From an uncultured Bacteroidota bacterium (GTDB lineage Bacteria > Bacteroidota > Bacteroidia > Bacteroidales > F082), in the NCBI GenBank assembly GCA_913009685.1, contig CAJVXP010000002.1, positions 50,172-114,171 on the forward strand: DNA of 64,000 nucleotides, given 5' to 3'. A model generated the notes under the pieces. That model made no database searches, had not been told where the DNA came from, and worked only from the letters and a program-made list of their open reading frames with translations. The translations under genes and the position numbers were made by a program. Positions 25,156 to 59,790 of the stretch are shown here, in pieces. Numbering within the stretch: position 1 is the first letter of the stretch; each line of letters starts with the position of its first letter.

Positions 25156-25623
25156 TCAATTAAAAACATGCAACAGGCTCCCATCATAAACCGTATGATA
25201 TTCAATCAAAGGATAGCGGCCGTTTCCCTGAATCAGTGAACCATCCAATAACTGATAGGTATTTCCGGTACACTCGTCTTTTGCAAACGGATAATATTTT
25301 CCTACAATAAGTTGCGTACACTGACTGCCGGTGCAACATTTGTTGGGATCGTTGGGTGGCAGGCGGTCGTATGCTTTGAAAGTGTTCTGGCTTTCGCGAT
25401 AAATAATTACGCCCCGCGAACCCGGCCCGATATAGGCACTCTGATCGCCATTAGCGACATAAATCCAACCTCCCACAGTATTTAATCCCTGATAAAAAGT
25501 GGAATTGGGGTCGATATCAATTTGGATAATTGCCCGCGGGTCGTTAGGATTAATGTTGGTTTTATTACACGAACCCAAAACAATACCTCCTAAAATAGCC
25601 ACAAATAGCATTAAACGTTTCAT
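25156..25623 (-). CDS. Lipoprotein of the Bacteroidota Rieske-like family, lacking canonical Fe-S ligands
   Basis: MKR plus hydrophobic stretch plus LGSC lipobox; GSRGVIIYR...FKAYD...YQLLDG..G..RYPLIEY pattern. Confidence 0.65.
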   Translation of the reverse strand: MKRLMLFVAILGGIVLGSCNKTNINPNDPRAIIQIDIDPNSTFYQGLNTVGGWIYVANGDQSAYIGPGSRGVIIYRESQNTFKAYDRLPPNDPNKCCTGSQCTQLIVGKYYPFAKDECTGNTYQLLDGSLIQGNGRYPLIEYHTVYDGSLLHVFN

Positions 25624-26106: not shown

Positions 26107-26124
26107 ATGTGACATAAGTCACAT
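26107..26124. promoter_or_regulatory. CRP/FNR-family (or Rex-like) operator upstream of cyc2
   Basis: ATGTGAC-ATAA-GTCACAT contains an exact TGTGA-N6-TCACA. Confidence 0.65.
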
Positions 26125-26263
26125 CACACCTGTCCGGATGAAGATAATTTTACAAATTCTTCTTTTGAAGTTATTTCTTATTAAAGGTTACAGCAGTCAG
26201 TTATTGAAAAGTTAATTGCAAAAAGAATCATCGTAATTAATTATTAACAAATTCTTAAAAGTT

Positions 26264-27658
26264 ATGAAAAGAAAATTATCATGTGAAGAAAAGAAAGCCA
26301 AAAAGGTATCTTTTCTTAAGAAAAACGGACTATCTCTTGTAGGGGGGTTCGTCTTCTTTCTTTTCCTGGTATCCAGTTCGGGAACAGCCATGGCTGTTCC
26401 AAGCTTTGCACGGCAAACGGGTTTATCATGTTCTGCCTGCCATACGGTATTCCCTGAGCTAACTTCCTTTGGAAGACAATTTAAGCTCAATGGATATACG
26501 CTTACGGGCATAAAAACCATTAACCAAACAAAAGTAAAAAAGGACGGAAAGAAAAGCGCTATTCTTAACCTGCTTAGTATTTCGCCTATTTCTGCCATGT
26601 TTCAAACAGGAATTACACATGTCAACAAAACCATTCCGGGAACCCAAAACAACAACGTTGAGTTTCCTCAACAAATGAGTTTGTTTTATGGTGGGCAAAT
26701 TACACCTCACATAGGAGCATTTATTCAGATTACGCTGGATGATGAATCCGGGACTATTGGCATGGATAATACTGATATTCGCTATTCAAATCACAGCAAC
26801 GGAAAAATACCTTTCACTTATGGGCTTACGCTGAACAATAATCCAACTGTTCAGGATGTTTGGAACACAACCGCCGCTTGGGGATATCCCTATACCGCGT
26901 CGGGAGTAGCTCCCACACCTGGTGCAGGACCCATCATCGAAAATCTCGGCGGAATGGTAGCCGGATTGGGAGGCTATGGACTTCTGAATAATCTTTTTTA
27001 CTTTGAATTTACAGGTTATGGTACTGCCCAACTCGGAGCAGCACTTCCCCCGGATGCATCGGTAGCCGGCGTCATAAAAGGAATCGCTCCTTACTGGAGA
27101 TTTGCTCTTCAGCATCAATGGACTAAAACTTATCTCGAAGCGGGTACTTATGGAATGTCTGCAAACATGTTTCCCATGGGGGTTTCCGGTTTGGCTGATA
27201 AATATGCCGATTTCGCATTTGATTTACAATATGAATATATGTTTTCAAAAGGACAGTTTACTTTACACACCACTTACATTACTGAAAAACAGACGCTTAA
27301 TGCTACACACAAAGCTGGCGACAGCCAAAACCTTTCCAACAAATTAAATACTTTTAAATGTGATGGAAGTGTGTTTTTGAAAGCAGGCGTGAACTTCACC
27401 CTGGGTTATTTTAACACTACCGGAACAGCTGACAATGTTCTGTATGCTCCTGCAGACATGGAAGGAAGCAGAGCAGGAACACCAAACAGCAGCGGTATTC
27501 TCGCTCAATTCGATTATTTACCCTGGGCAAATACTAAAATCTCTCTGCAATATGTGGCTTACAGTAAATTCAATGGCGCCAAAACAAATTATGACGGCTC
27601 CGGAAGAAAGGCCTCAGACAACAATTCTATTTACCTCCAGCTATGGTTTTTATTTTAG
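26264..27658 (+). CDS. cyc2: Cyc2-type fused monoheme cytochrome c / outer-membrane beta-barrel porin (putative Fe(II) oxidase or electron conduit)
   Basis: Signal peptide ending AMA, then VPSFARQTGLSCSACHTVFPELTSFGRQFKLNGY (AxPxFARQT + CxxCH + PxLxxFGRxFK Cyc2 signature); NNNVEFPQQMSLFYGGQITPHIG, NNNPTVQDVWNTT, APYWRFA, YLPWANTKISLQYVAYSKFNG; terminal Phe (BAM signal). Confidence 0.88.
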   Translation: MKRKLSCEEKKAKKVSFLKKNGLSLVGGFVFFLFLVSSSGTAMAVPSFARQTGLSCSACHTVFPELTSFGRQFKLNGYTLTGIKTINQTKVKKDGKKSAILNLLSISPISAMFQTGITHVNKTIPGTQNNNVEFPQQMSLFYGGQITPHIGAFIQITLDDESGTIGMDNTDIRYSNHSNGKIPFTYGLTLNNNPTVQDVWNTTAAWGYPYTASGVAPTPGAGPIIENLGGMVAGLGGYGLLNNLFYFEFTGYGTAQLGAALPPDASVAGVIKGIAPYWRFALQHQWTKTYLEAGTYGMSANMFPMGVSGLADKYADFAFDLQYEYMFSKGQFTLHTTYITEKQTLNATHKAGDSQNLSNKLNTFKCDGSVFLKAGVNFTLGYFNTTGTADNVLYAPADMEGSRAGTPNSSGILAQFDYLPWANTKISLQYVAYSKFNGAKTNYDGSGRKASDNNSIYLQLWFLF

Positions 27659-27712: not shown

Positions 27713-27748
27713 AAACCCGTACGGAAAGCCTTTCGTACGGGTTTATTA
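27713..27748. terminator. Hairpin between convergent cyc2 and phosphoesterase genes
   Basis: AAACCCGTACG-gaaagccttt-CGTACGGGTTT followed by an AT run. Confidence 0.7.
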
Positions 27749-31613: not shown

Positions 31614-32345
31614 ATGCTCATTCACGAGAACATGAAACTGGCCGATGTGATTCAACACGACCACACGCTGGTTCCTATCATAAACCGCTTTGGCATCCAT
31701 CTCGGTTTTGGTAACGACAACATTGCCGAAATCTGCCAAAAACATCATCTCAACATCGATTTTTTCCTGACCATTTTAAATGCTTTTCACGACATACACT
31801 ATTTCCCAAAAGAGCAGCTTCAACGTTTTCCGGCGGCCATGCTTATCGATTACCTGCAAAAGGCACACCGTTATTTTCTTGACGATAAAATTCCTGAAAT
31901 TTCGGCACTAATGGATAAAATGGCAGAAGAATATCCTTTAGATGAAACAACCTTCCGGCTTATCCGGAACTTTTTCACCGAATACGCACAGGAACTCAAA
32001 AAACACATACAGCGGGAAGAAGAAAAAATCTATCCCTATGTCCTTTATTTAGAGAAAGTGTTTTTGGATGGCAGTATAGATGAATACCTCAGGAATCAAA
32101 TCAGGAGTTATCCTATTTCTGAGTATGAATCCGAACACGAGAATATGGAAGAAAAACTCTTCGATCTTAAAAATATCCTCATTAAATACCTCCCTGAACC
32201 AAGGAAAGACGAGCTTGGCTATCAGATTTTGAGAGAGTTGTTTACGCTTGAAAAGGAGATGAACGAACATGCCCGCATCGAGAATTTAATTTTGATTCCG
32301 AAAGTCAAAGCCATGGAAAAAATACTGAAAAACAAAGAAATCTAA
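31614..32345 (+). CDS. Hemerythrin-domain (Ric/ScdA-like) di-iron protein
   Basis: ScdA_N-like RFGIHLGFG..IAEIC; ligand motifs HRYF, HIQREE, EH, HARIEN; TATCTTTG box at 31581-31588. Confidence 0.85.
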   Translation: MLIHENMKLADVIQHDHTLVPIINRFGIHLGFGNDNIAEICQKHHLNIDFFLTILNAFHDIHYFPKEQLQRFPAAMLIDYLQKAHRYFLDDKIPEISALMDKMAEEYPLDETTFRLIRNFFTEYAQELKKHIQREEEKIYPYVLYLEKVFLDGSIDEYLRNQIRSYPISEYESEHENMEEKLFDLKNILIKYLPEPRKDELGYQILRELFTLEKEMNEHARIENLILIPKVKAMEKILKNKEI

Positions 32346-32346
32346 A

Positions 32347-32952
32347 ATGGCCGATATTAAAAGCATGATTATCATTGAGAAGCACTACCTGCTACAAGCC
32401 GGCACGGAAGCCCTGATACAGGAGATTCCGGGCATCATGCATGTAAAATCCTATTCTGGAGATGAACCTCATTTGACCGCCATCATTTTAAAACATAAGC
32501 CCGATTTGCTTATCATAAATCCTTTCTCACTCTCTCCGGAGAATGCTGCCTTACCTCGTAAGATACATTCTAAACAAAACACAAATCTTATTGCCCTGAT
32601 ACGAAAAGAAGAGAGAAACCAGCTCTCTTTCGATTATTCGGAGATATTTTATTATGAAGACAGCAAATATGTGTTGGAGAAAAAGCTACGAAACAAAATC
32701 GGAAGTCAGAAAAACGAAGAAACAAACCATAAGGAACTCAGCCAGCGAGAGTTGACCATCCTAAAGCAAATTGTTCTGGGGTTGACTCATCAGGAAATAG
32801 CAGACAAGCTGTTTCTGAGTGTCCATACCGTAAACACACACCGCAAACACATCAACAAAAAACTGGGCATTAAAACGGTATCAGGACTTAGTGTGTATGC
32901 CATTATGAACCACATCGTAAAACTGGAAGAGCTGGCCAACAACGCCCGTTGA
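32347..32952 (+). CDS. LuxR-family regulator with a degenerate (pseudo-)receiver domain
   Basis: C-terminal LSQRELTIL...GLTHQEIADKLFLSVHTVNTHRKHINKKLG; PDLLIIN has Asn at the phospho-Asp position. Confidence 0.88.
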   Translation: MADIKSMIIIEKHYLLQAGTEALIQEIPGIMHVKSYSGDEPHLTAIILKHKPDLLIINPFSLSPENAALPRKIHSKQNTNLIALIRKEERNQLSFDYSEIFYYEDSKYVLEKKLRNKIGSQKNEETNHKELSQRELTILKQIVLGLTHQEIADKLFLSVHTVNTHRKHINKKLGIKTVSGLSVYAIMNHIVKLEELANNAR

Positions 32953-33081
32953 GCCTCTGGCACAGCCATCCGCCGGCGCCGGAGGTGAACATTATTCCAT
33001 AAAAAATCTCTCCCAAACCGTTTGTACAGAAAAGAAAAACATTATTTTTGCCGTAGTTATTTATACTAAATCTAAATTACA

Positions 33082-33585
33082 ATGAAGACAATCGGACTTT
33101 TTTACGGATCAACATACGGCATGACGGAAAAGATTGCCGAAAAAATAAAAATAGCTTTTGGAAAACACAAAGTTGTCCTTTACAACGTGAAAGACGCTCC
33201 CCAAGAGGCTTTGAAAGAATATGATTATCTGATCTTCGGCACCTCCGCATGGGGTATTGGCGAAATGCAGGATGACTGGGAACGCTGGATTTTCGAATTG
33301 GAAGATATTGACTTTTCGGGGAAGAAGGTGGCCCTTTTCGGGCTGGGAGATCAAAAGGAGTATCCGGAAAGCTTTGTTGATGGGTTGGGAACCCTTTATT
33401 GCCGCCTGCCCGACAAATCGGTTGTAGTGGGAGAATGGCCCACAGTTGGTTATAAATATTATTTTTCCCTTGCCGACAAGGACGGAAAATTTGTAGGGTT
33501 AGTTTTGGACGAAAACAACCAACAGGAAAAAAGCGATGAGCGCATCCGTAAATGGGTAATGCAGTTGGAAAAAGAATTTGTTTAG
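33082..33585 (+). CDS. fldA: Long-chain flavodoxin
   Basis: FYGSTYGMTEKIA, GTSAWGIGE, VALFGLGDQ..YPESFVD. Confidence 0.92.
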   Translation: MKTIGLFYGSTYGMTEKIAEKIKIAFGKHKVVLYNVKDAPQEALKEYDYLIFGTSAWGIGEMQDDWERWIFELEDIDFSGKKVALFGLGDQKEYPESFVDGLGTLYCRLPDKSVVVGEWPTVGYKYYFSLADKDGKFVGLVLDENNQQEKSDERIRKWVMQLEKEFV

Positions 33586-57007: not shown

Positions 57008-58693
57008 TTATTTCGTTCCGATAATCCTGAAATAATCCTTCAATACCAATGCATTTTCCGCCTGGGTAGTGAAAATCTCGAGAAGTGCCGGGCGATTGTT
57101 TTCACGATAAAAATCAGGCAGTTGGCCTATTAGTTCGGTTTCATTTTCCGCTTTGAAATAGCGCAGACCGAAAGCTTTGGCCAGCATCTCGGCTTTCCAG
57201 TGATGGGCTGTGGCAAAAAACAGTTCCCGCTGGGCTGCAGTGTCAGGCCCCGTGATAAAACGGAAAATGTCGCCGCCACCGTTGTTAATGACAATAATTT
57301 TCAGATTAGCTGTCAGGTTTAGGTTCATCAGGGCATTCGAATCGTAAAAAAAGCCCATATCACCGGTGATGACAGTATTGATTTTCGCTTTTGCGGCAAA
57401 GGCTGCTCCGGCTGCCGTGGAAACCTGCCCGTCGATACCGCTCACCCCGCGGTTGGAGAAATAATGAAATTTAGAAATACTCCCAAAAAGCTGGGCATAG
57501 CGCACGGGCGTGCTGTTTCCCAAATGCAAAAGGGTGTTTCCGGGTATTTCGCGAAACAAAATCTCATAAACTTTCAGGTCGCACCAGCCGGTTTTCGCCA
57601 GAAAAGCTATGCTTTTTTGCAAAACATGCTCTTTGTGCCTTTGCCAGAAACTCCTGTATTCACTTGTGTTTTCGGTCAGATTTTCCTTTTCCTGTGTGAG
57701 AAAATCAGCCGCATCCGCCCGAATAACGCCGGTCAGGCAAAAGTAAGTGTCTCTTTTTTCTCCGGAAGGGGAAATATGCCAATGATGTTTGGCCGGATGC
57801 GCCCGCAACAGCTTTTTGATCTTTTTCGACACAACGGAAGTGCCAAAAGTAATCAGTAACTCCGGTTGAAAATCAGCTATTTCTTCCTCCGGAATCTTCG
57901 CGATGAGGTTGTCGATTTCATCCATGAAACCGGGTGCATGGAGGTTGGAGGTGGTCTCGGTCAACACAGCGACTTGTGGTAATCCGGACAAGTGGTGTAA
58001 TATTTCATTTAGCTTTCCCGAAGGTTTTCCCTGCCCTGCAATAAGCAATATTTTCCGGCTTTGCTGCCAGTCGTGTAGAAATGCCAGCCGGATGCTTTCG
58101 TCTACCGGAGGCAGCTTTCCAAAAGTATCAAAAGCATTTCCGGTCATCGGCTCACCAGTTTGTTGGTACAACGGCTCATCAAAAGGAATATTGATGTGTA
58201 CCGGACCGGGTTCCGGAAACCGGGTCTCGTCAATGGCTTCATTAATCAGCCGGTTTACTTTCTCTTTTTCTTCTTCAGTCGTTATCTCCAGCGGAAGTGA
58301 ACAGGACTTTTTGATGTAGTTGGCAAAAACATTTTCCTGCCGGATGGTTTGCCCGTCACCCACATCAATCAGGTGCGGAGGCCGGTCGGCGGTAAGCACC
58401 AGCAACGGGATTTTCTGATAATAAGCCTCTGCAATGGCCGGAGCATAGTTGAGCACGGCGCTGCCCGAGGTACAGGCAATGGCCACCGCTCGTTGCTTTT
58501 GCTGGGCCATGCCGAGGGCAAAAAAGGCGGCACTGCGTTCGTCAACAACGCTCACAGCCTGAATATCCGGATGTTGGGCAAAGGTAATAATGATGGGCGC
58601 ATTACGCGAACCCGGCGACAACACAATTTCCCGCAGCCCCTTTTTTGTAAAAATATCTGCCAGCAGGCTGATGGTTTTTTTATCTGAAGTCAT
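57008..58693 (-). CDS. menD: SEPHCHC synthase
   Basis: SPGSRNAP, DERSAAFFALG, CTSGSA, TADRP, NRGVSGIDG, GD..F.YD.N, NNGGG.IF; start overlaps the menF stop. Confidence 0.95.
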   Translation of the reverse strand: MTSDKKTISLLADIFTKKGLREIVLSPGSRNAPIIITFAQHPDIQAVSVVDERSAAFFALGMAQQKQRAVAIACTSGSAVLNYAPAIAEAYYQKIPLLVLTADRPPHLIDVGDGQTIRQENVFANYIKKSCSLPLEITTEEEKEKVNRLINEAIDETRFPEPGPVHINIPFDEPLYQQTGEPMTGNAFDTFGKLPPVDESIRLAFLHDWQQSRKILLIAGQGKPSGKLNEILHHLSGLPQVAVLTETTSNLHAPGFMDEIDNLIAKIPEEEIADFQPELLITFGTSVVSKKIKKLLRAHPAKHHWHISPSGEKRDTYFCLTGVIRADAADFLTQEKENLTENTSEYRSFWQRHKEHVLQKSIAFLAKTGWCDLKVYEILFREIPGNTLLHLGNSTPVRYAQLFGSISKFHYFSNRGVSGIDGQVSTAAGAAFAAKAKINTVITGDMGFFYDSNALMNLNLTANLKIIVINNGGGDIFRFITGPDTAAQRELFFATAHHWKAEMLAKAFGLRYFKAENETELIGQLPDFYRENNRPALLEIFTTQAENALVLKDYFRIIGTK

Positions 58694-59790
58694 GGGGCAA
58701 AGTTCCGTAAATTTTCCACAACCGACAAGATGGTGGACGACTTGTCTTCCGTTTCCTGCCACTCTTCTTCCGGTTTGGACGCCGCCGTAAGCCCGCCACC
58801 CACATAAAGTGCAAGTTTTTCATTTAAAAAGCGGGCACAACGCAGATTCACAAAAAGATGCGATCTGTTCTCCATTTGCCACGGTCCCAGAAAGCCGGTG
58901 TAAAAATGCCGCTGATGTTTTTCCGTTTCGCTGATGAGCTGCCATGCTTTTTCTTTAGGCAGGCCGCATACCGCCGGTGTGGGATGTAACGCTTTAACGA
59001 AATGTCCGGTTTTTCCGCGCAAAGCGGTAACCGGAAGGCGAAATCGTGTGCAGATGTGCGCCAGACTGCCGGCAAAAATTGTCTCCGGTCTGCTTTCTTC
59101 ATAATTTTCAATACGAAGTTTCCCGATTTGTTCCTCCACAAAACCCGTAACAAAAGCCTGCTCCTCTTTTTCCTTTTCATTCCAGGTCAAAGGTTTTTCG
59201 CCGGCATTACATTTTTGTGTTCCGGCCAGTGCCATGGTTTCGTAAAAACTACCGTTACGGCTGAGCAGCGTTTCCGGAGTAGCGCCGGCCCAAATCCCTT
59301 CGCCGGGCAGATGAAAAAGATAGACAAAAGCGTCAGGATAGCTTTGCCGGAAAGTGTCAAAAAACATATCGAAATCGAAATCCGGCGACAATGGTTTTTC
59401 CAAAACCCGCGACAACACTACTTTTCGGACTTCACCATTTTTAATCCTGTCAACAAGTTTGTTCACCTGCTGCAGGTAAGTTTCTCTATCAGCGACAAAG
59501 CTTTTATCCTCCGGAAGCTGAAATTCTTTATCCGGAAAAGAATCAAGTAAAGCGATTAATTTTTCCTTTTCCAAACGGTTCCGGGAAACAAATGCAGGCT
59601 CAATCAAAAAAGCTTTTCCGTTTTTATATGAATCAAAAGGCGCTATTACAAAACCCTTTTGCTGTTCTAACTGCGCCAACGAAAACTCCCGCACAGGGCC
59701 CGGCTGAACCACAAAAACCGGCAACTTCTCCCCGGGAAGCCGGTAAACAGCAAAAGTTATATTTTTGGTTAACAGTTGACGAATAAGCAT
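58690..59790 (-). CDS. menF: Isochorismate synthase
   Basis: KVVLSR, GATPE, ALAGT, LHPTPAVCG, LFVNLRC, GGGLT, EWQET..K. Confidence 0.9.
   Translation of the reverse strand: MLIRQLLTKNITFAVYRLPGEKLPVFVVQPGPVREFSLAQLEQQKGFVIAPFDSYKNGKAFLIEPAFVSRNRLEKEKLIALLDSFPDKEFQLPEDKSFVADRETYLQQVNKLVDRIKNGEVRKVVLSRVLEKPLSPDFDFDMFFDTFRQSYPDAFVYLFHLPGEGIWAGATPETLLSRNGSFYETMALAGTQKCNAGEKPLTWNEKEKEEQAFVTGFVEEQIGKLRIENYEESRPETIFAGSLAHICTRFRLPVTALRGKTGHFVKALHPTPAVCGLPKEKAWQLISETEKHQRHFYTGFLGPWQMENRSHLFVNLRCARFLNEKLALYVGGGLTAASKPEEEWQETEDKSSTILSVVENLRNFAP

What the first reader, a model, noticed from the sequence alone, without database searches (positions are those of the whole stretch)
26264..27658. Stand-alone Cyc2 iron-oxidase-type cytochrome-porin in a Bacteroidota genome
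Seen: signal peptide, the Cyc2 N-terminal signature with a single CxxCH, a beta-barrel body and a terminal Phe. Known: Cyc2 is the outer-membrane Fe(II) oxidase of Acidithiobacillus ferrooxidans, Zetaproteobacteria and Gallionellaceae. From memory of the A. ferrooxidans protein, NNNVEFPQQMSLFYGGQITPHIG and YLPWANTKISLQYVAYSKFNG match it closely, which suggests cluster 2. Bacteroidota are regarded as organotrophs. The gene here is monocistronic with its own terminator and has no neighbouring Cyc1, rusticyanin or oxidase genes. Inference: an undescribed extracellular electron uptake or release route (Fe, FeS minerals, or a partner cell) feeding a menaquinone chain. Caveat: the His I recall as the proposed distal heme ligand in A. 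ferrooxidans appears to align with Gln (GAFIQIT), so heme ligation and function may differ.
Basis: partly seen in the sequence, partly recalled or inferred. Interest (0 to 1): 0.85.

Follow-up and report, generated by a model that had tools for sequence, protein, structure and literature searches.

The report
Lone Cyc2 porin with hidden partner

Summary
Observation confirmed. The ORF is a cluster 2 Cyc2: 33% identical over its length to A. ferrooxidans Cyc2, with a predicted 16-strand barrel. It is no binning artefact: 17 of 23 congeners carry it, and G000 has a second copy and a cytochrome c synthase.

"Undescribed" is too strong. Cluster II Cyc2 in vent Bacteroidota is published (PMC9769843), and this scan noted Cyc2/c/bc modules on other DNA.

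New here: the gene is alone in position but probably not in regulation. A Crp/Fnr-type palindrome followed 21 nt later by a Bacteroidota -7 element precedes it and an unlinked Rieske/cytochrome b-dihaem c operon, here and in congeners. All 16 family genomes with that complex carry cyc2; none of 6 cyc2-negative ones has it.

In 6 of those 16 genomes I found no enzyme that drains cytochrome c, so I lean slightly to outward flow (quinol to metal, 0.42) over Fe(II) uptake (0.38).

The His-to-Gln change is real, but that His is a proposed iron site, not the distal ligand. A lumen Met (112 or 169) is the better ligand candidate.

The parts
26108..26123 (+). Palindromic Crp/Fnr-type box (TGTGA-N6-TCACA), 140 nt upstream of the start codon; shared with the Rieske operon at G000 C19:20632
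   Evidence: Present upstream of 12 of 25 other cyc2 copies examined in the family.
26145..26152 (+). Bacteroidota -7 promoter-like element (TAnnTTTG, one mismatch) exactly 21 nt after the box; class II activator geometry inferred
   Evidence: Same spacing at 23 of 23 cyc2, Rieske and cytochrome c sites. The consensus and geometry are recalled.
26264..27658 (+). cyc2 gene, cluster 2, paralogue lineage A (464 aa)
26264..26395 (+). Sec signal peptide, residues 1-44
   Evidence: the mature start matches the A. ferrooxidans cleavage register
26393..26461 (+). Cyc2 signature: AXPXFARQT, CxxCH (56-60) and PXL
26588..27655 (+). Predicted 16-stranded beta-barrel ending in Phe
26597..26599 (+). Met112, inferred lumen-facing candidate distal haem ligand; replaced by Met169 in sequences that lack it
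   Evidence: orientation inferred from strand alternation
26726..26770 (+). Inner metal site equivalent: Q155/D168/N169 in place of A. ferrooxidans H119/D137/D138
27092..27211 (+). Outer metal site equivalent: Y277 and D316, matching Y262/D308
   Evidence: (Tyr in 103 of 103, Asp in 101 of 103)
27713..27744 (.). GC-rich hairpin between convergent genes, likely a terminator
57011..59790 (-). menD and menF-like genes (context: menaquinone synthesis)
   Evidence: 87-90% identical to congener genes that I named from their sequence, with no family scan

Best explanation
The gene encodes a cluster 2 Cyc2 haem-porin that likely forms the surface end of a wire running Cyc2, periplasmic monohaem cytochrome c, Rieske/cytochrome b-dihaem c complex, menaquinone, is predicted to be switched on with that complex by one Crp/Fnr-type activator, and in this heterotroph more likely carries electrons outward to dissolved Fe(III) or another metal than inward. 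Shown: family, cluster, co-occurrence, operon linkage in relatives, shared upstream motif. Predicted: the fold. Inferred: co-regulation, the shuttle (not in the G000 assembly), His/Met haem ligation, and the direction. Outward flow would let the Rieske/b complex run forward and conserve energy.
For: Wire: cyc2 and the Rieske/b complex co-occur in the family, 16 both, 3 cyc2 only, 0 complex only, 6 neither (p 5e-4, overstated because the genomes are kin). No such link with cbb3, NosZ, cNor, peroxidase, bo3 or bd. Of the best 80 GTDB loci, 54 have an adjacent monohaem c and 11 the cytochrome b-dihaem c, 8 of them co-directional.

Regulation: a matrix built from 12 congener cyc2 boxes, with G000 left out, scores only two strong sites in G000: the Rieske operon (27.6 bits) and this gene (26.6); the next site scores 13.5. 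A perfect box lies upstream of 9 of 15 Rieske operons. Spacing to the -7 element is 21 nt at 23 of 23 such sites and at 0 of 16 sulfur-gene sites. The genus pattern has 47 sites against 4 in the reversed control. A complete cyc2-negative congener has the flanking genes adjacent and no box.

Direction: in 6 of 16 cyc2+complex genomes (84-99% complete) I found no cbb3/aa3, NosZ, cNor or peroxidase. NirK was not found in 5 tested, TsdA/SoxA not in 5, and NirS gave only weak partial hits in 2 of 5. G000 and G011 show no oxygen reductase at all. A multihaem lipoprotein cluster accompanies the module in 10 of 15 congeners against 1 of 9. The route quinol, bc1, Cyc2, Fe(III) is proposed for A. ferrooxidans (PMC8790237).
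Against: Every purified Cyc2 in the papers read is an Fe(II) oxidase.

The 3 cyc2 genomes without the complex all have a cbb3-size oxidase, and in G017 cyc2 ends a cbb3 operon; that is the inward layout. G004, G007, G013 and G020 have quinol oxidases (bo3 verified only for G004), so inward flow through the quinone pool has a sink. One Cyc2 has Em -130 mV, which would make that flow easy.

G000 is 88% complete and 2.1 Mb against about 3 Mb in congeners. It lacks the monohaem shuttle found in 20 of 23 congeners, so its missing oxidases may be assembly gaps.

The raw count of boxes in G000 is not above chance: 4 perfect sites against 0-5 in 10 shuffles, and 2 composite sites against 0-4 in 20 shuffles. 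The case rests on position and conservation. 13 of 25 other cyc2 copies and 6 of 15 Rieske operons lack the box. The regulator is not identified. A multicopy element lies between the box and the G000 Rieske start.
Confidence: 0.42

Rival explanations
1. The same wire runs inward. Cyc2 oxidises dissolved Fe(II); electrons go by cytochrome c to cbb3, cNor or NosZ where present, or back through the Rieske/b complex to menaquinone and then to bo3/bd. This gives a heterotroph supplementary energy (chemolithoheterotrophy).
For: Family biochemistry. The outer metal site Y262/D308 and D137, reported as supported by mutagenesis (review text), are kept. cyc2 sits in a cbb3 operon in G017. 22 of 23 congeners have a haem-copper family hit and 18 of 23 have bd. 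PMC9769843 reads such MAGs this way.
Against: cyc2 tracks the Rieske/b complex, not any oxidase. 10 of 16 cyc2+complex genomes lack cbb3. G000 and G011 show no oxygen reductase. The inner site is altered (H to Q in 103 of 103; D138 to N or M). Reverse flow through a Q-cycle costs proton motive force that a heterotroph does not need to spend (established knowledge).
Confidence: 0.38
2. The wire is reversible or serves another substrate, such as copper ions, sulfur species or soluble shuttles, acting as a redox valve or detoxification route rather than an iron respiration step.
For: The second paralogue lies in a copper-resistance island with CopA, DUF302, DUF2231 and a Met-rich protein, in G000 and at least five congeners. 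A T-variant of the same palindrome controls DsrE-TusA-MvhD-HdrA, polysulfide reductase-like and FadL-like genes in congeners. The inner metal site differs from the acidophile enzyme.
Against: The sulfur-gene sites have another inner base (C in 36 of 46 half-sites at cyc2/Rieske/c against 2 of 32) and no -7 element at 21 nt, so they look like a separate regulon. The copper-island copies lack the box. I found no paper showing such activity for Cyc2.
Confidence: 0.15
3. The gene is a leftover: in G000 it has lost its shuttle and works only as a porin, or is not expressed.
For: No monohaem shuttle in the assembly. The G000 copper island lacks the cytochrome c that congeners carry there. A mobile element sits in the Rieske leader.
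Against: Intact ORF, intact haem motif and metal-site residues, an intact promoter motif, 91% identity to the nearest congener, and a synthase is present. The whole housekeeping locus of the shuttle (murB, sensor kinase) is also missing from the assembly, which points to a gap.
Confidence: 0.05

Closest known systems
Cyc2 of Acidithiobacillus ferrooxidans (B7JAQ7, cluster 2, rus operon)
   Same: 33% identity over the full length. Same signature, single haem and 16-strand barrel. H16, D137, Y262 and D308 equivalents kept. Same side of the tree, SH 98.
   Different: No rus operon partners. H119 is Gln and D138 is Asn. A lumen Met is present that the acidophile proteins lack. The partner is a Rieske/cytochrome b-dihaem c complex in a menaquinone heterotroph.
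Cluster 1 Cyc2 (Mariprofundus PV-1, Ghiorsea TAG1, Chlorobium)
   Same: Same family motif and architecture; neutral-pH hosts.
   Different: Presumed cluster 1 proteins from green sulfur bacteria match mostly the N-terminal 110-240 residues at 55-69 bits, against 195 bits for rus-operon Cyc2. PV-1 and TAG1 sequences were not in my comparison.
Cluster II Cyc2-like proteins of vent Bacteroidota MAGs (Zhong et al. 2022, PMC9769843)
   Same: Same phylum, habitat type and cluster. A named record from that study's MAG set encodes an 81% identical protein in the same neighbourhood.
   Different: The passages read give no partners, promoter or direction test. The supplementary table cells were blank as text, so I could not see which MAG was scored cyc2-positive.
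Proposed Fe(III) reduction chain of A. ferrooxidans (quinol, bc1, CycA1, rusticyanin, Cyc2)
   Same: Same order of carriers as my preferred reading (PMC8790237).
   Different: Rests on proteomics and transcriptomics in an acidophile that uses ubiquinone and rusticyanin; here menaquinone, a fused cytochrome b-dihaem c and a monohaem shuttle.

Membership tests
Cyc2 family | AXPXFAR[Q/K][T/Y] motif before CXXCH and PXL after it | tested here: met
   definition
Cyc2 family | Single haem c site, length at least 365 aa, signal peptide | tested here: met
   464 aa, one CxxCH
Cyc2 family | C-terminal 16-stranded porin barrel | tested here: met
   Predicted model, pLDDT 92, 16 strands; OprP Z 21.9
Cyc2 family | FeGenie Cyc2 HMM hit | not testable with these tools
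   FeGenie models are not among the libraries held
Cyc2 cluster 2 | Groups with A. ferrooxidans Cyc2 apart from clusters 1 and 3 | tested here: met
   FastTree of 131 rows, SH 98. Caveats: long branches flagged, the IQ-TREE run did not finish, and the outgroups are presumed cluster 1 (green sulfur bacteria) and five unassigned distant proteins, not named references.
Cyc2 cluster 2 | Outer metal site Y262/D308 | tested here: met
   Y277/D316
Cyc2 cluster 2 | Inner metal site H119/D137/D138 as in A. ferrooxidans | tested here: not met
   Q155/D168/N169, one of three kept. This describes the acidophile enzyme rather than the cluster: all 103 other sequences have Gln.
Iron oxidase (function) | Holoprotein reduced by Fe(II), with a suitable midpoint potential | not testable with these tools
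   Needs purified protein
rus-operon iron oxidation system | cyc2-cyc1-cup-coxBACD-rus linkage | tested here: not met
   Neighbours are nrdJ, a lipoprotein and a phosphoesterase; no COX1 found in G000
c-type cytochrome | Host has a maturation system | tested here: met
   1032-aa protein at C3:64175-67273 with the WWD motif; CcsB model 186.9 bits against a cut-off of 187.6, just under
Crp/Fnr class II regulon | TGTGA-N6-TCACA box at fixed distance before the promoter element | tested here: met
   the consensus and the class II geometry are recalled
Crp/Fnr class II regulon | Cognate regulator identified and shown to bind | tested here: inconclusive
   Four Crp/Fnr genes in G000; only C6:70766-71401 has the Arg-Glu recognition helix. 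Binding is not testable here.

The most novel reading that the evidence does not exclude
In vent Bacteroidales and other FCB heterotrophs, cluster 2 Cyc2 is the terminal metal reductase of a three-part, energy-conserving chain (menaquinol, Rieske/cytochrome b-dihaem c, monohaem c, His/Met-ligated Cyc2). A dedicated Crp/Fnr regulon holds it together after the operon has broken up. Many MAGs now scored as iron oxidisers on cyc2 alone would then be iron reducers.
Probability: 0.33. Interest if true: 0.8.

Novelty: new variant of a known kind. Interest (0 to 1): 0.52.

Why it matters
cyc2 is widely used as a marker for iron oxidation, yet most of clusters 2 and 3 is untested (PMC8406198). This case names the likely partner complex, a promoter motif and a candidate haem ligand, and points to genomes where an oxygen- or nitrogen-oxide sink for cytochrome c seems absent. 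That makes the direction of electron flow testable. Named Flavobacteriaceae species (Yeosuana aromativorans, Gaetbulibacter aestuarii) carry 64% identical proteins with the same key residues, so the test need not wait for a vent isolate.

Tried and rejected
Binning artefact or chimera: rejected. 17 of 23 congeners carry the gene and the nrdJ-side locus is conserved in 8 of the 19 congener or family stretches fetched. GC is 41.9%; GC3 is low (4th percentile), as it is for the paralogue and the cytochrome b gene, so an old transfer is not excluded.

Pfam, NCBIfam and PDB sequence searches gave no hit. Fold searches returned only porins and other barrels, with no solved Cyc2 among the rows listed. 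The first fold, on 31 rows with the signal peptide, left the haem domain unresolved (pLDDT 68). The ESM Atlas gave only 'cytochrome c' clusters. No RNA holder was listed for the region.

The A. ferrooxidans plasmid homologue is not the rus-operon Cyc2.

The divergent lipoprotein (25156-25620) is not part of the unit: it is present in 5 of 5 genomes without cyc2 at that locus and shows no similarity to the Rieske protein.

One regulon with the sulfur genes: disfavoured. A structured RNA in the Rieske leader: only a sub-threshold Rfam hit; the insert is a repeat. Rieske potential from sequence was not informative, and my Qo-motif search returned nothing. The Melioribacter paper holds no Cyc2, Rieske or secretion terms.

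Literature searches for the partner and regulon link: 'Cyc2 Rieske Bacteroid menaquinone' gave 1 paper, a green sulfur bacteria review; 'cyc2' with lineage names gave 6, none containing cyc2; 'cyc2 Fnr binding motif regulon' gave 441, 15 listed, one with cyc2, on RegBA in A. ferrooxidans. No complex prediction was run. Oxidase types were assigned by score and length class; only G017 (cbb3) and G004 (bo3) were verified by family scan.

Full report
1. Observation. The ORF at 26264-27658 encodes 464 aa with a signal peptide cleaved after A44, one CxxCH, the published Cyc2 signature and a final Phe. A model of the mature chain from 135 aligned relatives is confident (pLDDT 92, pTM 0.89) and shows 16 barrel strands behind a small helical haem domain; its best structural match is OprP (Z 21.9). 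Neighbours are nrdJ, a divergent lipoprotein and a convergent phosphoesterase, with a hairpin after the stop.

2. Cluster. A pattern made from published residue numbers retrieved two cyc2 genes in complete or near-complete rus operons. One also had Y262 and D308, which were not in the pattern, and falls in the 90% cluster of A. ferrooxidans B7JAQ7. The window protein is 33% identical to B7JAQ7 over its length (E 2e-64). In a FastTree of 131 proteins its clade joins the rus-operon proteins (SH 98) apart from proteins of green sulfur bacteria (FMO in 3 of 3 tested) and five distant ones (long branches flagged). Cluster 2 is supported; FeGenie could not be run.

3. Residues. Against B7JAQ7: H16 = H60, H119 = Q155, D137 = D168, D138 = N169, Y262 = Y277, D308 = D316. 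Among 103 other cluster 2 sequences Gln is invariant, Tyr is in 103 and Asp316 in 101. The modelling paper proposed H119/D137/D138 and Y262/D308 as iron sites (passages). A 2026 review reports mutagenesis support for Y262/D308 and D137/D138 and only the proximal His as predicted axial ligand (section 19 read). A Met stands at 112 or 169 in 105 of 109 sequences; the four exceptions are Acidithiobacillus sequences (three rus-type, one plasmid-borne). All 11 other sequences that lack Met112 have Met169, in two separate clades, against 7 of 94 that keep it. I infer a lumen Met, probably the distal ligand; no distance could be measured.

4. Distribution. G000 (2.1 Mb, 88% complete) has a second copy at C3:100697-102091, 62% identical. 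17 of 23 congeners and the one other family genome carry one to three copies; 2 of 16 other genomes of the order have only weak hits. In a draw of 400 genomes of the phylum only 3 have full-length close relatives. Two paralogue lineages, A (window) and B, predate the genus and lie in tandem at this locus in G012. Named records with the closest proteins include a Candidatus Sulfidibacterium MAG (68%) and a vent MAG that its authors class as Bacteroidales F082/SZUA-53 (81%, same neighbours); the lineage is inferred from these.

5. Partners. Of the best 80 of 587 GTDB loci, 54 have a monohaem cytochrome c within 700 bp, 11 a cytochrome b-dihaem c fusion (8 co-directional, usually cyc2-c-Rieske-cyt b) and 3 a pentahaem plus molybdo-family gene. 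In the family, cyc2 is next to Rieske/b in G004, G013, G020, G023 and G024 and ends a cbb3 operon in G017. G000 has the complex at C19:21083-23709. Presence table over 25 family genomes: 16 both, 3 cyc2 only, 0 complex only, 6 neither; no association with cbb3, NosZ, cNor, peroxidase, bo3 or bd (the genomes are kin, so p values overstate). The monohaem shuttle is in 20 of 23 congeners but not in the G000 assembly. A System II synthase and men genes are present.

6. Shared promoter. Aligning ten upstream regions showed a palindrome at 26108-26123. It is present (at most 1 mismatch) before 12 of 25 other cyc2 copies and perfect before 9 of 15 Rieske operons; two of the six negatives had truncated upstream DNA. 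A matrix from the 12 congener sites finds two strong sites in all of G000: the Rieske operon and this gene (27.6 and 26.6 bits; next 13.5). At all 23 cyc2, Rieske and cytochrome c sites a -7-like element follows after exactly 21 nt; it does so at none of 16 sites before sulfur genes. Of 47 genus-wide perfect sites (4 in the reversed control), 12 precede cyc2 or its remnant, 9 Rieske, 1 the shuttle, 21 sulfur-related operons or their regulators, and 4 lie inside genes. Against this, the bare number of boxes in G000 is within chance, and the regulator is unknown. In the complete cyc2-negative G008 the flanking genes are adjacent with no box, so the box travels with cyc2.

7. Direction. G000 shows no haem-copper oxidase, bd, NosZ, peroxidase, NirK, NirS, TsdA or molybdo-enzyme, but it is incomplete, and 22 of 23 congeners have a haem-copper family hit. 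More telling, 6 of 16 cyc2+complex genomes lack every cytochrome c-fed sink searched, including G004 (99% complete; only bo3, bd and a qNor-size protein) and G011 (95%; no oxygen reductase found, uptake-type hydrogenase present). There the complex's cytochrome c side has Cyc2 as its only evident outlet or inlet. Forward flow conserves energy and has a precedent proposed for A. ferrooxidans (passages). Reverse flow into menaquinone and on to bo3/bd stays possible, the more so as one Cyc2 titrates at -130 mV (passages), and the three cbb3 genomes without the complex look inward. I put outward at 0.42, inward at 0.38, another substrate or reversible use at 0.15, and a relic at 0.05. The wire itself, whatever its direction, I put near 0.85.

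8. Prior knowledge. Cyc2 in Bacteroidota is in print: cluster II in vent MAGs (PMC9769843, passages and part 1 of 4 of one supplement), FCB group (PMC7329443, passages), Bacteroidetes ORFs (PMC11333457, passages). Also read as passages: PMC6850669, PMC7029218, PMC10654088, PMC12451612, PMC13458620, PMC5492636; PMC8406198 as passages plus section 12. Earlier notes of this scan saw Cyc2/c/bc modules on other genomes, which I read after my own synteny results. I found no paper on the shared promoter or the Met swap. The library lacks most subscription papers, including Leng et al. 2022, and bioRxiv supplements and figure trees could not be seen.

9. Verdict. A real cluster 2 Cyc2 in a lineage where the family is already known. 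It gains interest from a probable two-operon regulon and a testable question of direction. New variant of a known kind; interest 0.52.

Noticed in passing
G000 C2:16326-18038 (L005:8327-10039), same contig, outside the window: Nine-haem cytochrome with a type IX secretion C-terminal sorting domain: a candidate surface-displayed cytochrome.
   Followed up: no
G000 C3:82442-94822 (L001, L002, L058): Multihaem cluster: NapC/NirT-like 6-haem, DUF5777 barrel, monohaem lipoprotein, 6-haem lipoprotein, 4-, 19- and 7-haem proteins, cytochrome b561 and two Crp/Fnr genes. The 6-haem lipoprotein is in 11 of 24 genus genomes, 10 of them cyc2 plus Rieske/b.
   Followed up: partly
G000 C3:95421-102091 (L002): Second cyc2 (lineage B) in a copper island: DUF302, small metal-binding protein, CopA, DUF2231, Met-rich protein; a CusCBA-like pump lies upstream. 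Congeners carry a monohaem c in this island; G000 does not.
   Followed up: partly
G000 C19:20719-20890 (L003): A roughly 170-bp element with inverted ends, 13 copies at 90% identity or more, 6 at contig ends, inserted between the box and the Rieske start. It may dampen the operon and explains some assembly breaks.
   Followed up: partly
L225, L228-L231, L234, L236-L243: Congeners have a DsrE-TusA-MvhD-HdrA-HdrA operon with divergent Cys-rich Crp/Fnr regulators and a T-variant box, plus Psr-like and FadL-like genes under the same variant; the operon is not in the G000 assembly.
   Followed up: partly
G000 C33:19085-22221 (L004): A second Rieske gene followed by a cytochrome b fused to 11 c-type haems; a similar pair lies beside the sulfur operon in G004.
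   Followed up: no
G000 C10:50703-53814 (L204): Type III sulfide:quinone reductase gene divergent from a Crp/Fnr gene.
   Followed up: no
G016 C24:13692-14187: A 3' fragment of a cyc2 lineage A gene and a box remain behind the intact B copy: a decayed tandem pair.
   Followed up: no
L069 (G004 C110): A cyoABCD-type bo3 quinol oxidase in a Bacteroidales genome; similar-size hits in five more congeners.
   Followed up: partly
window 25156-25620 (-): Cys-rich lipoprotein with no Pfam hit, conserved beside nrdJ with or without cyc2.
   Followed up: partly
window 31614-33585: Hemerythrin/RIC-like protein, LuxR regulator and long-chain flavodoxin 4 kb downstream of cyc2, also near it in several congeners.
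   Followed up: no
L232 (G009 C35): Adjacent 25-haem and 20-haem cytochrome genes in a cyc2-negative congener.
   Followed up: no
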